Below are positions 2,707-63,808 of a stretch of 64,000 nucleotides of DNA, one piece after another. The notes under the pieces are model-generated. The model did no database searches, was not told where the DNA came from, and was given only the letters and a program-made list of their open reading frames with translations. The stretch is taken from assembly GCA_964016885.1 (NCBI GenBank), contig OZ024746.1, forward strand, positions 65,038,001 to 65,102,000. The letters run 5' to 3'. Position 1 is the first letter of the stretch, and every line of letters begins with the position of its first letter. This stretch comes from Eledone cirrhosa (Eukaryota). Made by a program: the position numbers and the translations under genes.

Positions 2707-2939
2707 TACACACACACACACACACACACACACACACATATATATATATATATATAATAGGATATGTGTTCCTTCACGCACAAGGCGCTAAGGGACGCAT
2801 GTATTGTCCAACCAAATGCCAATGTGGTTCAATGGCAGGTTAATAAATTAACGAGCCAGAACATATATAAACAAGGTTTAGCAAATAATGAAAAAGTTTC
2901 AAAATAAATTTTAAAAAATTGACTTTACCTACTATAGTT

Positions 2940-3022
2940 ACCTTTACCGATCGGTTTCGAATCCCAAAAATAAACGGAGACCATACGGCCTTCGTTGCAA
3001 AGAAAGATTCTCGTCAGAAGGT
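2940..3022 (-). ncRNA. Type I hammerhead ribozyme (mirror copy of 3281-3363)
   Basis: Reverse complement of the + strand motif in the other palindrome arm. Confidence 0.75.
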
Positions 3023-3280
3023 TCTTTTCATTCGAAGAATATAAAATTCTTGAATTTAAATTACGAACTAGCGCTATCCAAAACTGTTCCTGAGATGAGA
3101 GTGAATGAAGTGGAATCAATTTTTTCAAGGGCCGAAGTAAAGATAGAGGCCTGCCTCTATCTTTACTTCGGCCCTTGAAAAAATTGATTCCACTTCATTC
3201 ACTCTCATCTCAGGAACAGTTTTGGATAGCGCTAGTTCGTAATTTAAATTCAAGAATTTTATATTCTTCGAATGAAAAGA

Positions 3281-3363
3281 ACCTTCTGACGAGAATCTTT
3301 CTTTGCAACGAAGGCCGTATGGTCTCCGTTTATTTTTGGGATTCGAAACCGATCGGTAAAGGT
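3281..3363 (+). ncRNA. Type I hammerhead ribozyme
   Basis: acctt CTGACGA gaatct..ggattc GAAA ccgatcgg TA aaggt. Helix I is 5 bp, helix II is G-C closed, helix III is palindromic (ACCGATCGGT), and the cleavage site is GUA. Confidence 0.78.
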
Positions 3364-3602
3364 AACTATAGTAGGTAAAGTCAATTTTTTAAAATTTATT
3401 TTGAAACTTTTTCATTATTTGCTAAACCTTGTTTATATATATATATATATATATATATATATATATACATACATATTACACACACACACACACACACACA
3501 CACATATATATATATATATATATATATATATATATATATATATATATGCAAGTATGTATGTATAAACTATTCATTGTTTCAAATGTTTCCAACCTATTTC
3601 AG

Positions 3603-3639
3603 ACTGGATGGTGTTATGTGGAACCGAATGAAAATTGAG
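3603..3639 (+). CDS. GH10-WSC gene, probable short exon (LDGVMWNRMKIE)
   Basis: tttcag acceptor and GAG|gtaaaa donor. The phase-0 end joins to give KIE-VVQKKLLFAFGSAV, the usual strand before the animal GH10 barrel. Confidence 0.6.
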
Positions 3640-59020: not shown

Positions 59021-59087
59021 TATTTTATCTGATGAGGACGTACTGTTGAAGTTAACTCAGTACCTCTGAAATATGTATAATAAAATA
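59021..59087 (+). ncRNA. Type I hammerhead (family of 29840)
   Basis: tattttat CTGATGA ggac-gtactg..cagtac-ctct GAAA tatgta TA ataaaata. 8-bp helix I. Confidence 0.68.
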
Positions 59088-59260
59088 TACTTGATCACAA
59101 GAATATCTATTTTGTTAATATTTTGAATTAATATTAATAACTCCGGAAAACCATTACTGTTGAGTGCTTCCAATCTATTGTAAAACTCCTTCTTTGATTT
59201 ATTCATTGAACCTTGTTTAACCTTTAAATATATATATATATATATATATATATATATATA

Positions 59261-62200
59261 AATTGGAATAAATGCTCTGAAATAGCGATATATATGTGAA
59301 TATCGACATAGAATATTCGAAAATATTCTGTATGTTTATAATAAACATTTTGAAGACCTAATCGCTATAGAATAGAATACGTCACGTATTACAATTAGAT
59401 TCTCGATAAAAGCAAGGGAAGTAATCTACGCGTTTCATTCTCGTTAGAAATCATCAGGACTACATATCCAGTGCTTTTATCGAGAATGACACAGCTAGAG
59501 ACTTATAGAATACTTAGCTGTGTACAGGAACTGGTTTGAAAGAGCGGTTGCCGGTCCGGCAGAAATTAGAAATTGGAATAAATGCTCTGAAATAGCGATA
59601 TATATGTGAATATAGACATAGAATATTCGAAAATATTCTGTATGTTTATAATAAACATTTTGAAGACCTAATCGCTATAGAATAGAATACGTCACGTATT
59701 ACAATTAGATTCTCGATAAAAGCAAGGGAAGTAATCTACGCGTTTCATTCTCGTTAGAAATCATCAGGACTACATATCCAGTGCTTTTATCGAGAATGAC
59801 ACAGCTAGAGACTTATAGAATACTTAGCTGTGTACAGGAACTGGTTTGAAAGAGCGGTTGCCGGTCCGGCAGAAATTAGAAATTGGAATAAATGCTCTGA
59901 AATAGCGATATATATGTGAATATAGACATAGAATATTCGAAAATATTCTGTATGTTTATAATAAACATTTTGAAGACCTAATCGCTATAGAATAGAATAC
60001 GTCACGTATTACAATTAGATTCTCGATAAAAGCAAGGGAAGTAATCTACGCGTTTCATTCTCGTTAGAAATCATCAGGACTACATATCCAGTGCTTTTAT
60101 CGAGAATGACACAGCTAGAGACTTATAGAATACTTAGCTGTGTACAGGAACTGGTTTGAAAGAGCGGTTGCCGGTCCGGCAGAAATTAGAAATTGGAATA
60201 AATGCTCTGAAATAGCGATATATATGTGAATATAGACATAGAATATTCGAAAATATTCTGTATGTTTATAATAAACATTTTGAAGACCTAATCGCTATAG
60301 AATAGAATACGTCACGTATTACAATTAGATTCTCGATAAAAGCAAGGGAAGTAATCTACGCGTTTCATTCTCGTTAGAAATCATCAGGACTACATATCCA
60401 GTGCTTTTATCGAGAATGACACAGCTAGAGACTTATAGAATACTTAGCTGTGTACAGGAACTGGTTTGAAAGAGCGGTTGCCGGTCCGGCAGAAATTAGA
60501 AATTGGAATAAATGCTCTGAAATAGCGATATATATGTGAATATAGACATAGAATATTCGAAAATATTCTGTATGTTTATAATAAACATTTTGAAGACCTA
60601 ATCGCTATAGAATAGAATACGTCACGTATTACAATTAGATTCTCGATAAAAGCAAGGGAAGTAATCTACGCGTTTCATTCTCGTTAGAAATCATCAGGAC
60701 TACATATCCAGTGCTTTTATCGAGAATGACACAGCTAGAGACTTATAGAATACTTAGCTGTGTACAGGAACTGGTTTGAAAGAGCGGTTGCCGGTCCGGC
60801 AGAAATTAGAAATTGGAATAAATGCTCTGAAATAGCGATATATATGTGAATATAGACATAGAATATTCGAAAATATTCTGTATGTTTATAATAAACATTT
60901 TGAAGACCTAATCGCTATAGAATAGAATACGTCACGTATTACAATTAGATTCTCGATAAAAGCAAGGGAAGTAATCTACGCGTTTCATTCTCGTTAGAAA
61001 TCATCAGGACTACATATCCAGTGCTTTTATCGAGAATGACACAGCTAGAGACTTATAGAATACTTAGCTGTGTACAGGAACTGGTTTGAAAGAGCGGTTG
61101 CCGGTCCGGCAGAAATTAGAAATTGGAATAAATGCTCTGAAATAGCGATATATATGTGAATATAGACATAGAATATTCGAAAATATTCTGTATGTTTATA
61201 ATAAACATTTTGAAGACCTAATCGCATCGCTATTTCAGAGCATTTATTCCAATTTCTAATTTCTGCCGGACCGGCAACCGCTCTTTCAAACCAGTTCCTG
61301 TACACAGCTAAGTATTCTATAAGTCTCTAGCTGTGTCATTCTCGATAAAAGCACTGGATATGTAGTCCTGATGATTTCTAACGAGAATGAAACGCGTAGA
61401 TTACTTCCCTTGCTTTTATCGAGAATCTAATTGTAATACGTGACGTATTCTATTCTATAGCGATTAGGTCTTCAAAATGTTTATTATAAACATACAGAAT
61501 ATTTTCGAATATTCTATGTCTATATTCACATATATATCGCTATTTCAGAGCATTTATTCCAATTTCTAATTTCTGCCGGACCGGCAACCGCTCTTTCAAA
61601 CCAGTTCCTGTACACAGCTAAGTATTCTATAAGTCTCTAGCTGTGTCATTCTCGATAAAAGCACTGGATATGTAGTCCTGGTGATTTCTAACGAGAATGA
61701 AACGCGTAGATTACTTCCCTTGCTTTTATCGAGAATCTAATTGTAATACGTGACGTATTCTATTCTATAGCGATTAGGTCTTCAAAATGTTTATTATAAA
61801 CATACAGAATATTTTCGAATATTCTATGTCTATATTCACATATATATCGCTATTTCAGAGCATTTATTCCAATTTCTAATTTCTGCCGGACCGGCAACCG
61901 CTCTTTCAAACCAGTTCCTGTACACAGCTAAGTATTCTATAAGTCTCTAGCTGTGTCATTCTCGATAAAAGCACTGGATATGTAGTCCTGATGATTTCTA
62001 ACGAGAATGAAACGCGTAGATTACTTCCCTTGCTTTTATCGAGAATCTAATTGTAATACGTGACGTATTCTATTCTATAGCGATTAGGTCTTCAAAATGT
62101 TTATTATAAACATACAGAATATTTTCGAATATTCTATGTCTATATTCACATATATATCGCTATTTCAGAGCATTTATTCCAATTTCTAATTTCTGCCGGA

Positions 62201-63388
62201 CCGGCAACCGCTCTTTCAAACCAGTTCCTGTACACAGCTAAGTATTCTATAAGTCTCTAGCTGTGTCATTCTCGATAAAAGCACTGGATATGTAGTCCTG
62301 ATGATTTCTAACGAGAATGAAACGCGTAGATTACTTCCCTTGCTTTTATCGAGAATCTAATTGTAATACGTGACGTATTCTATTCTATAGCGATTAGGTC
62401 TTCAAAATGTTTATTATAAACATACAGAATATTTTCGAATATTCTATGTCTATATTCACATATATATCGCTATTTCAGAGCATTTATTCCAATTTCTAAT
62501 TTCTGCCGGACCGGCAACCGCTCTTTCAAACCAGTTCCTGTACACAGCTAAGTATTCTATAAGTCTCTAGCTGTGTCATTCTCGATAAAAGCACTGGATA
62601 TGTAGTCCTGATGATTTCTAACGAGAATGAAACGCGTAGATTACTTCCCTTGCTTTTATCGAGAATCTAATTGTAATACGTGACGTATTCTATTCTATAG
62701 CGATTAGGTCTTCAAAATGTTTATTATAAACATACAGAATATTTTCGAATATTCTATGTCTATATTCACATATGTATCGCTATTTCAGAGCATTTATTCC
62801 AATTTCTAATTTCTGCCGGACCGGCAACCGCTCTTTCAAACCAGTTCCTGTACACAGCTAAGTATTCTATAAGTCTCTAGCTGTGTCATTCTCGATAAAA
62901 GCACTGGATATGTAGTCCTGATGATTTCTAACGAGAATGAAACGCGTAGATTACTTCCCTTGCTTTTATCGAGAATCTAATTGTAATACGTGACGTATTC
63001 TATTCTATAGCGATTAGGTCTTCAAAATGTTTATTATAAACATACAGAATATTTTCGAATATTCTATGTCTATATTCACATATATATCGCTATTTCAGAG
63101 CATTTATTCCAATTTCTAATTTCTGCCGGACCGGCAACCGCTCTTTCAAACCAGTTCCTGTACACAGCTAAGTATTCTATAAGTCTCTAGCTGTGTCATT
63201 CTCGATAAAAGCACTGGATATGTAGTCCTGATGATTTCTAACGAGAATGAAACGCGTAGATTACTTCCCTTGCTTTTATCGAGAATCTAATTGTAATACG
63301 TGACGTATTCTATTCTATAGCGATTAGGTCTTCAAAATGTTTATTATAAACATACAGAATATTTTCGAATATTCTATGTCTATATTCA
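59261..63388. repeat. Inverted tandem array of a 310-bp hammerhead-containing unit (retrozyme-like): ~6.3 units minus, then ~7 units plus; junction 61225/61226
   Basis: Exact 310-bp period. 6 minus and 7 plus HHRs, one with A6 to G at 61681. (TA)n at both ends. Confidence 0.95.
61362..61404 (+). ncRNA. Type I hammerhead of the 310-bp unit (representative of 13 copies)
   Basis: gtagtc CTGATGA t-ttct-aacg-agaa-t GAAA cgcg TA gattac. Helix I extends through a perfect 16-bp stem (61338-61353 with 61411-61426). Helix III is palindromic (ACGCGT). Confidence 0.87.
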
Positions 63389-63492
63389 TATATATATATA
63401 CTTAGGTTAGTAGGAGTTAGGTATTATATACCCGTGTCCCGTTAAGGTATTGGCAGCATAATAATTAGCTCTATGCTTTGGAGCAGAGCCGT

Positions 63493-63808
63493 ATATATGA
63501 AAAAGAACACAAGAGCGTCTACAACATCAACAGATTTTTATTGGCTAACAATGTTTCTTCCTTACGTAACCGTAGGATTCGTCAGAGCTATAAAAGGGGT
63601 TTGATTGGTGTTATGGACTCTACCAACCAAACACCCAAGAACACTCTTTACTCTCTGTTCTTGGGTGTTTGGTTGGTAGAGTCCATAACACCAATCAAAC
63701 CCCTTTTATAGCTCTGATGAATCCTACGGTTACACGTAAGGAAGAAACATTGTTAGCCAATAAAAATCTTTTGATGTTATAGACGCTCTTGTATTCTTTT
63801 TCATATAT
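63493..63808. repeat. ~150-bp-arm fold-back with hammerhead-like motifs at 63544-63588(-) and 63711-63757(+)
   Basis: 14-nt spacer. gct CTGA(T/C)GA atcctacg..cgtaaggaa GAAA cattg TT agc. Ends in (TA)n. Confidence 0.78.

What the first reader, a model, noticed from the sequence alone, without database searches (positions are those of the whole stretch)
2863..63808. Window-wide rule: fold-back insertions in (TA)n with outward-pointing hammerheads
Seen: the 2863-3440 palindrome, 24918-26697, 34400-37400, 37490-38898, 51321-51715, 63493-63808 and both arrays all place a full or partial HHR on the minus strand in the left arm and on the plus strand in the right arm. Most abut (TA)n. Two carry PLE GIY-YIG coding sequence. 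Known: PLEs have HHRs in their pLTRs and often insert with inverted termini. Inference: a continuum from autonomous PLEs to short non-autonomous fold-backs and multi-unit retrozymes, all targeting TA microsatellites.
Basis: partly seen in the sequence, partly recalled or inferred. Interest (0 to 1): 0.75.

Follow-up and report, generated by a model that had tools for sequence, protein, structure and literature searches.

The report
Back-to-back Penelope and ribozyme-repeat insertions
Jumping genes of the Penelope type and small protein-free ribozyme repeats in this animal genome sit as two back-to-back arms inside TA repeats, one arm slightly longer than the other, a footprint that likely arises when both ends of the cut DNA copy the same RNA, often probably a small RNA circle, a route long proposed but not yet shown.

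Summary
The orientation rule is real and genome-wide. All eight named loci have hammerheads on minus left and plus right. In 480 kb of arbitrary genome, 23 of 23 hammerhead-bearing inverted repeats point outward. The rule is sharper than reported: each insertion has one arm ending at a TA-like site and one carrying a family-specific tail of 24-184 nt, and both true ends lie in (TA)n (86 of 86 scorable 310-nt insertions; 12 of 12 coding PLE copies). Centres are asymmetric, which argues against fold-back. Both arms share private variants in every unit, which points to one RNA template, mostly a monomer circle; 3 of 88 loci instead suggest a multimer. The coding partners have Hydra-clade PLE motifs. 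Corrections: several 'short non-autonomous fold-backs' are truncated PLE ends or truncated arrays, 24918-26697 is part of a larger rearranged PLE, and 34400-37400 is composite. Head-to-head inversion, tails, TA targeting and retrozymes derived from PLEs are published. The strict pairing rule and the template evidence were not found in print. The scan had noted this on other DNA of this genome. No RNA evidence was obtained.

The parts
59257..63397 (.). 310-nt retrozyme, head-to-head array: left arm 59257-61225 (minus, 6.3 units, 26-29 nt tail), right arm 61230-63397 (plus, 7 units, no tail), 4-nt insert at the centre, type I HHR in every unit
   Evidence: 11,110 HHR pattern hits genome-wide; 1,426 no-tail ends at TA
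30477..34306 (.). 466-nt retrozyme, head-to-head array: left arm 30477-32062 (minus, 59-nt tail), right arm 32063-34306 (plus, no tail)
   Evidence: 10,122 HHR pattern hits genome-wide
28054..28473 (+). separate single arm of the 466 family; it faces the array inward across 2 kb, the one inward pair in the window
2754..3433 (.). truncated two-arm copy of a 485-nt tandem family: left arm minus with a 116-nt tail (2754-2869), right arm plus; full type I HHR with a long stem II in each arm
23286..26697 (.). Hydra-type PLE copy, rearranged: minus arm about 23286-25113 (3' half of HHR, pLTR end, tail region, decayed ORF from N-terminus to RT thumb) and plus arm 25114-26697 (thumb, EN, pLTR, no-tail end at TA); arms largely non-overlapping, as in internal twin priming
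25628..26071 (+). GIY-YIG-type endonuclease domain with CxCX5C linker and no CCHH
   Evidence: (150 scored genomic copies at 88-100% identity); no Pfam hit
34470..37395 (.). composite: inner fold-back about 35360-36920 with a minus-strand GIY-YIG C-terminal fragment (about 36150-36430) and a minus HHR, between two more diverged tailed HHR ends (34470-34720 minus, 37147-37395 plus)
37421..38897 (.). two pLTR arms of a coding Hydra-type PLE, 70-nt tail on the left, full HHR in each arm, microsatellite-rich centre
51323..51851 (.). two-arm copy, 135-nt tail on the right; HHR with about 110-nt stem II on plus, 3' half only on minus
63401..63808 (.). two pLTR arms of a coding Hydra-type PLE, about 90-nt tail on the left; shares its left TA tract with the 310 array
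   Evidence: 45 no-tail and 40 tail ends at TA in fetched DNA
46845..47100 (.). short two-arm copy with about 40-nt tail
39333..39732 (.). older two-arm copy (77% arm identity) with a probable 155-nt tail; weakly supported
   Evidence: 3 hits only
43556..44454 (.). two-arm copy of a relative of the 310 unit (76-83% identical) and an adjacent plus arm of a 310 subfamily

Best explanation
These are head-to-head, two-armed insertions in (TA)n with one tailed and one untailed end, likely made when a Hydra-type Penelope enzyme cuts both DNA strands and each cut end primes reverse transcription on the same RNA. Shown: the geometry, the one-tail rule, TA at both true ends, independent arm lengths, asymmetric centres joined by short microhomology or short inserts, and arms that share private variants. 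Inferred: (1) the enzyme, possibly a dimer, cuts both strands in (TA)n; (2) one end primes at a TA-like motif in the RNA (no-tail site, the primary event) and the other at a second fixed site 24-184 nt downstream (tail site); (3) both cDNAs stop at random points and are joined by end-joining repair; (4) for retrozymes the template is mostly a hammerhead-made monomer circle read round several times, with a minority of uncleaved multimers. Short palindromes are the early-stopping products of the same reaction.
For: 310 family: of 104 insertions examined, 88 are minus/plus two-armed, 15 single-armed (2 cut by an edge or gap), 1 complex and 0 inward. All 86 scorable two-arm copies have exactly one tail end. 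The one-tail rule also holds in 12 of 12 coding PLE copies with both ends visible, 12 of 14 scorable 466 copies, 6 of 8 485 copies and 5 of 5 63401-family copies. Single-arm copies are untailed in 12 of 13. The tail arm is longer in 43 of 86. The centre is within 10 nt of symmetric in 6 of 88 (6.0 expected). Junctions: 44 with 1-6 nt overlap, 6 blunt, 27 with 1-20 nt insert, 11 other. Inner ends fall at the HHR cut in 2 of 176 (6.2 expected), so arms run through the cut site. Same template: 82 of 84 arm-fixed variants are shared by both arms, while two random loci share a haplotype 13% of the time (52 insertions). Monomer bottleneck: 18 of 88 loci carry a private variant in every unit of both arms (about 11% of units carry a singleton). 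There are 21 intermediate-frequency substitutions against about 181 expected under steady homogenisation. Mirrored unit-specific variants occur at 3 loci against about 30 expected for in-register linear multimers. The 310 HHR core matches the pLTR of a coding PLE at 26 of 28 nt. In vitro, a PLE cleaves and extends both strands and starts at two sites that define the tail (PMC11167929, parts 1-2 of 4 read).
Against: There is no RNA evidence here for transcription, cleavage or circles. Three loci (L231, L242, L254) have variants mirrored unit for unit from the outer ends, which a monomer circle cannot give; L137 and L266 have arms that differ. Long arms show multi-unit duplications after insertion (L235, L038, L093b), so arm length alone does not prove rolling-circle copying. 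The expectation of about 30 mirrored variants assumes source arrays as old as today's copies; younger sources would lower it. Two loci have two untailed ends (L315, L119). Most 310 loci were found through end patterns that require TA and a given end type, so the share of two-arm copies is biased; L125 probably counts one insertion twice. In vitro the two strands did not differ in start site (PMC11167929), so the coupling is not explained. The 466 and 485 units showed no match to the three PLE ends tested.
Confidence: 0.62

Rival explanations
1. Twin priming is right, but the usual template is a long uncleaved linear multimer transcribed from an existing array; the hammerhead is a passenger.
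For: Mirrored variants at 3 of 88 loci and an offset pattern at L137. The HHR has a minimal stem III, and HHR cleavage was dispensable in vitro (PMC11167929). Coding PLEs give the same footprint from linear RNA.
Against: It does not explain private variants fixed in all units of both arms at 18 of 88 loci, and it predicts about 30 mirrored singletons.
Confidence: 0.17
2. Self-priming or fold-back: one cDNA (or an antisense template, as proposed in PMC3846280) turns back and copies itself to make the second arm.
For: Proposed in PMC3846280 (passages read). Near-perfect centres in 2754-3433 and 42844-42949. Mirrored variants at 3 loci. It explains haplotype sharing directly.
Against: No excess of symmetric centres (6 of 88, 6.0 expected). 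Lone arms are untailed in 12 of 13, yet the tail arm is the longer one in 43 of 86, which a copy of an untailed first arm cannot be. L137 is not mirrored.
Confidence: 0.1
3. Insertions start short; arrays then grow by unequal exchange and are homogenised by gene conversion between palindrome arms.
For: Block duplications in L235, L038 and L093b, and mirrored outer units. Palindromic arms can convert each other (general knowledge, recalled).
Against: The frequency spectrum is bimodal: 156 fixed, 148 single, 25 intermediate; 21 intermediate substitutions against about 181 expected. Several loci of 14-17 units have no variant at all. It does not explain the fixed tail/no-tail ends.
Confidence: 0.07
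4. DNA fold-back transposons or MITEs, or inverted-duplication artefacts of assembly.
For: Long near-perfect inverted repeats. L125 shows one duplicated insertion beside an assembly gap.
Against: The ends are unequal by a fixed tail, the centre is variably 5'-truncated, the flanks are unique, the same rule holds for RT-coding copies, and single-arm copies exist.
Confidence: 0.04

Closest known systems
Canonical EN+ Penelope-like element insertions (PMC8557442 passages and sections 11 and 15; PMC3846280 passages; PMC11167929 parts 1-2 of 4)
   Same: Inverted 5'-truncated copy at the 5' end, head-to-head as the most frequent arrangement, tail often at one end only, HHR in the pLTR, AT-rich or (TA)n targets.
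   Different: Here both arms can be many kilobases long and overlap fully. The tail is 24-184 nt rather than 30-40. The one-tail rule is near-absolute. The published proposal for the inversion is self-priming, which these data disfavour.
Hydra clade of PLEs (PMC8557442, section 11)
   Same: RWK and DKT motifs, CxCX5C linker, no CCHH, C-terminal EN, canonical HHR, (TA)n insertion.
   Different: Described as a small number of families in aquatic invertebrates; here very abundant (58,898 first-look candidates). Phylogeny not tested.
Metazoan non-LTR retrozymes (PMC7229834 passages; review PMC7761336 passages; bioRxiv 10.64898/2026.07.22.740005 parts 1-3 of 5)
   Same: Non-coding tandem units of a few hundred nt, type I HHR in each unit, low GC, related to PLE pLTRs; proposed copying of circRNA into multimeric cDNA.
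   Different: Those papers describe direct tandem arrays; 'inverted' and 'microsatellite' occur 0 times in PMC7229834. Here most insertions are mirror arrays with a PLE tail. Li et al. favour local amplification after insertion, whereas these arrays look mostly born multimeric.
Opposite-strand min-HHR pairs in Schistosoma (PMC4209133, passages)
   Same: Dual HHRs 100-700 bp apart on opposite strands, attributed to truncated PLEs.
   Different: Orientation, ends and targets were not analysed in the passages read.
LINE-1 twin priming (recalled, not read here)
   Same: Both target strands prime on one RNA and give a head-to-head junction with microhomology.
   Different: In L1 the second primer anneals internally, so the arms do not overlap. 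Here both start at fixed sites near the same 3' end. The window's 23286-26697 copy is the L1-like exception.

Membership tests
Non-LTR retrozyme (310, 466, 485 families) | Tandem units of a few hundred nt, each with a type I HHR | tested here: met
   466 and 485 exceed the 150-450 range of PMC7229834 but fall within the 51-972 range of Li et al.
Non-LTR retrozyme (310, 466, 485 families) | No protein coding, GC below 50% | tested here: met
   No stop-to-stop frame of 120 aa or more within the two window arrays; 310 unit has 107 G+C of 310
Non-LTR retrozyme (310, 466, 485 families) | Highly self-paired RNA | tested here: met
   310 unit -73.7 kcal/mol, z -4.22, 0 of 100 shuffles fold as well; 466 and 485 not folded whole
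Non-LTR retrozyme (310, 466, 485 families) | Self-cleavage and expression as circular RNA | not testable with these tools
   Needs RNA reads or bench work; see Tried and rejected
Non-LTR retrozyme (310, 466, 485 families) | No LTR, PBS or PPT | not tested
   No LTR seen in the architectures; PBS and PPT not searched
Hydra-clade PLE (23286-26697, L295/L296, L278) | RWK motif and DKG changed to DKT | tested here: met
   Window copy RWK and DKT; L295/L296 and L278 have RWR and DKT
Hydra-clade PLE (23286-26697, L295/L296, L278) | C-terminal GIY-YIG EN with CxCX5C linker, CCHH absent, CxxC and CxH around the conserved E and N | tested here: met
   By inspection of the 25628-26071 translation against section 11 of PMC8557442; no Pfam hit
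Hydra-clade PLE (23286-26697, L295/L296, L278) | HHR in the pLTR and (TA)n insertion | tested here: met
   the window's own plus-arm HHR is degenerate
Hydra-clade PLE (23286-26697, L295/L296, L278) | RT phylogeny places it in the Hydra clade | not tested
   No reference Hydra sequences were fetched
Canonical PLE insertion footprint | Inverted 5'-truncated copy, head-to-head, tail on one end | tested here: met
Canonical PLE insertion footprint | Tail of 30-40 bp | tested here: not met
   Met only for the 310 (24-31 nt) and 46845 (about 40 nt) families; 59-184 nt in the others
Canonical PLE insertion footprint | Target-site duplication | tested here: inconclusive
   Hidden by (TA)n; paralogous empty sites found for only 2 of 64 insertions
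Fold-back DNA transposon or MITE | Equal terminal inverted repeats with the same end on both sides | tested here: not met
   Ends differ by the tail in 86 of 86
L1-type twin priming | Inverted and direct segments do not overlap | tested here: not met
   Arms overlap from the 3' end in nearly all copies; met only for 23286-26697

The most novel reading that the evidence does not exclude
Thousands of mirror arrays are genomic fossils of twin rolling-circle reverse transcription: a Penelope enzyme pair copies one hammerhead-made RNA circle from both ends of a TA break, with the two start sites obligately paired. Boldest extension: A-to-I edits of that RNA are written into the genome, as recurrent A>G changes in the predicted stems (unit positions 118, 119, 121, 135, 189), including one locus (L137) where the change appears partway through an arm. 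The probability given is for the circle plus twin-priming reading; the editing extension is about 0.2.
Probability: 0.5. Interest if true: 0.8.

Novelty: new variant of a known kind. Interest (0 to 1): 0.6.

Why it matters
Two open questions meet here. How Penelope-like elements make their inverted repeats and one-sided tails is stated as unresolved in PMC8557442. Whether retrozyme circRNAs are really copied into multimeric cDNA by PLE enzymes is proposed in PMC7229834 and PMC7761336 but not shown in the passages read. This genome holds over a thousand very young, near-identical insertions of one 310-nt family, plus coding Hydra-type partners with the same footprint. That gives exact start sites, a target and a candidate enzyme for an in vitro test. 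It also explains a major source of long palindromes in this genome.

Tried and rejected
Rfam scan: dominated by miRNA hairpin matches; no hammerhead among the 150 of 386 rows shown, so it was not used. My first reading that the 485-family HHR has a broken core was wrong: one search shows a canonical fold with a long stem II. RNA: no RNA holder listed. Laying four contig sets of unknown kind gave a single cyclic 340-nt contig in X1 and in X2, which tandem DNA would also give; not used as evidence. Genome search with the 51590-51714 arm found nothing (common words skipped); the family was studied in fetched DNA instead. Empty-site test for whether TA pre-exists or grows: 2 of 64 insertions informative, inconclusive. 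Shared structure in tails: z from -2.4 to +1.6 in 10 tails, no common fold. Editing test: distinct both-arm-fixed A>G 8 against T>C 5, p 0.18; singletons 7 against 16; Fisher p 0.09. A hand tally counting recurrences gave p about 0.02 but favoured A>G in its counting, so I do not rely on it. G-U tolerance in stems or recombination could give the same pattern. Pfam gave no GIY-YIG or PLE RT hit on 5 of 5 PLE frames. One search was unreadable because of internal self-hits and was redone. Literature searches for prior description. None listed a paper on mirror retrozyme arrays or twin priming by PLEs. Subscription journals are not covered, and I opened no supplements (for example Supplementary Figure S9 of PMC7229834 and those of the bioRxiv preprint), which may bear on this.

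
Full report
Setting. The window lies at G000:C6:65038001-65102000 in a 3.0-Gb animal genome. Repeats that resemble octopus SINEs suggest a cephalopod; that resemblance is recalled and untested.

1. The observation. A type I hammerhead descriptor finds HHRs in every unit of the 310-nt and 466-nt arrays, all minus in the left arm and plus in the right. Family-specific cores show the same at the six other named loci. The 485-family HHR is canonical with a long stem II. 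Controls on reversed sequence gave 0 hits against 36 and 42 in 480 kb of arbitrary genome. In those blocks 23 of 86 inverted-repeat rows had HHR homology and all point outward. Same-family opposite-strand neighbours were outward in 28 of 31; the 3 inward cases belong to one family with a self-complementary stem II, one is a self-overlap and two have TA between them. Genome-wide lists agree: 10 of 10 strand switches for the 310 family, 14 of 14 within 1.5 kb for the 466 family and 7 of 7 for the endonuclease domain. TA adjacency is 26 of 46 ends against 2.0% background, inflated by masking, and 33 of 38 in loci picked without a TA criterion.

2. What the elements are. Each family has two fixed 3' ends at TA, one untailed and one tailed. 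Tail lengths are 24-31 nt (310 family), about 40 (46845), 59 (466), 70 (37421), 75 (42764), about 90 (63401), 116 (485), 135 (51323) and 184 (coding PLE). This is why most window palindromes seemed to touch TA on one side only: the tail carries the other arm to TA. The coding elements have Hydra-clade motifs. 37421-38897 and 63401-63808 are pLTR ends of such elements, since RT ORFs follow them elsewhere. The 310 HHR core matches one of these pLTRs at 26 of 28 nt; the 466 and 485 units matched none of three PLE ends tested. 24918-26697 belongs to a 23286-26697 copy whose left arm runs on through the tail into the RT ORF and stops about 200 nt before the point where the right arm begins, an internally primed inversion. 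34400-37400 is composite.

3. Anatomy of the 310 family. There are 11,110 HHR hits, 1,426 untailed ends at TA and 870 tailed ends on the forward strand (reverse counts are multiplied by the gap). Of 104 insertions examined, 88 are two-armed minus/plus, 15 single-armed, 1 complex and none inward. All 86 scorable two-arm copies have one end of each type; 12 of 13 complete lone arms are untailed. Most loci came from end patterns, so proportions are biased, and L125 probably double-counts one insertion. The tail arm is longer in 43 of 86 (Spearman 0.26, p 0.016). Centres are not symmetric beyond chance, junctions mostly show 1-6 nt overlap or 1-20 nt inserts, and inner ends do not pile up at the HHR cut. 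The other families mostly follow: 12 of 12 coding copies, 12 of 14 for 466, 6 of 8 for 485, with two untailed/untailed exceptions.

4. Template. In the first 52 insertions, 82 of 84 arm-fixed variants were shared by both arms, while two loci share a haplotype 13% of the time. Across 88 insertions and 865 units, variants are fixed (156) or single (148) and rarely intermediate (25). Eighteen loci carry a private variant in all units of both arms. A monomer circle made from any genomic unit predicts about 11% such loci; in-register linear multimers predict about 30 mirrored singletons and steady homogenisation about 181 intermediates. Observed: 20%, 3 loci and 21. Against a pure circle model, L231, L242 and L254 have mirrored unit-specific variants, L137 and L266 have discordant arms, and L235, L038 and L093b show later block duplications. 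I conclude that the template is mostly a monomer and sometimes a multimer.

5. Mechanism. Inferred: the PLE enzyme cuts both strands in (TA)n; one 3' end primes at the TA-like motif (primary event, seen alone in lone arms), the other at the tail site of the same RNA; both cDNAs stop at random and are joined. The in vitro work on an anole PLE shows cleavage and extension of both strands and two start sites that define the tail, but no strand difference in start site and no need for HHR cleavage (PMC11167929). Self-priming (PMC3846280) is disfavoured by asymmetric centres and by tail arms longer than untailed arms.

6. Editing lead. Both-arm-fixed A>G changes cluster in the predicted helix closing the HHR. 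A135G and A189G each recur on 3 backgrounds, and in L137 A135G is absent from the 4 outer units of one arm and present in all other units. The statistics are weak (8 against 5, p 0.18), and structural tolerance or recombination could explain it. PMC7229834 raised editing as one explanation for circRNA heterogeneity in mussels.

7. What is known. Head-to-head inverted copies, one-sided tails and microsatellite targets are published for PLEs. Opposite-strand HHR pairs were noted in PMC4209133. Retrozymes as PLE derivatives copied from circles are proposed. Seven searches listed no paper on mirror retrozyme arrays, an obligate tail pairing or twin priming by PLEs; supplements were not opened. Earlier notes of this scan reached the same reading on other DNA of this genome; I had formed it before the look-up and treat those notes as no support. 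A word search for the editing and mirrored-variant tests found none.

8. Verdict. It is a new variant of a known kind, interest 0.6, because it gives precise, testable predictions for two open mechanisms while the architecture itself is largely published.

Noticed in passing
window 847-2707 (minus): A second PLE type with DKG, CX2-5CxxC linker and CCHH motifs (Neptune- or Nematis-like by motif), directly beside the 2754 insertion.
   Followed up: no
window 8878-14926 (minus): Two tandem non-LTR RT frames (709 and 873 aa, Pfam RVT_1 on the longer) with a restriction-like endonuclease motif at the C-terminus; R2/NeSL-like label recalled.
   Followed up: partly
window 15413-22364 (plus): L1/Tx1-like elements with ORF1, AP endonuclease and RT (Pfam RVT_1 and Exo_endo_phos).
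   Followed up: partly
window about 45040-45260 and 22853-22912: Exon-like stretches; the first reads like a glycoside hydrolase family 10 segment (recalled). The elements may lie in introns of a host gene.
   Followed up: no
window 40556-41337: Four tandem 195-nt copies of a SINE-like repeat also found at 49236, 50643, 52774, 55729 and 56424; resembles octopus OK SINEs (recalled).
   Followed up: no
window 46845-47050 and 42437-42577: Hammerhead boxes in permuted order (GAAA box before CUGAUGA box) without a canonical cleavage triplet.
   Followed up: partly
L254: The two outer units of each arm are one subfamily and all inner units another: a multi-unit template read in register, or replacement of the centre.
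   Followed up: partly
L137: A135G switches on partway along the left arm and is present throughout the right arm.
   Followed up: partly
L093, L085, L092, L037; window 63390-63401: Insertions pile up at shared TA tracts, including inside or beside other families; this produces the rare inward-facing pairs.
   Followed up: partly
window 26696-27003; L084, L090: TA tracts beside insertions carry periodically repeated interruptions, sometimes the same on both sides; possible target duplication or slippage.
   Followed up: no
fetched loci: At least 26 HHR sequence clusters, several with stem II inserts of 40-110 nt.
   Followed up: partly
runs X1, X2, X6: The 310 unit occurs almost unchanged in runs labelled as four different organisms; run kind unknown and contamination not excluded.
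   Followed up: partly
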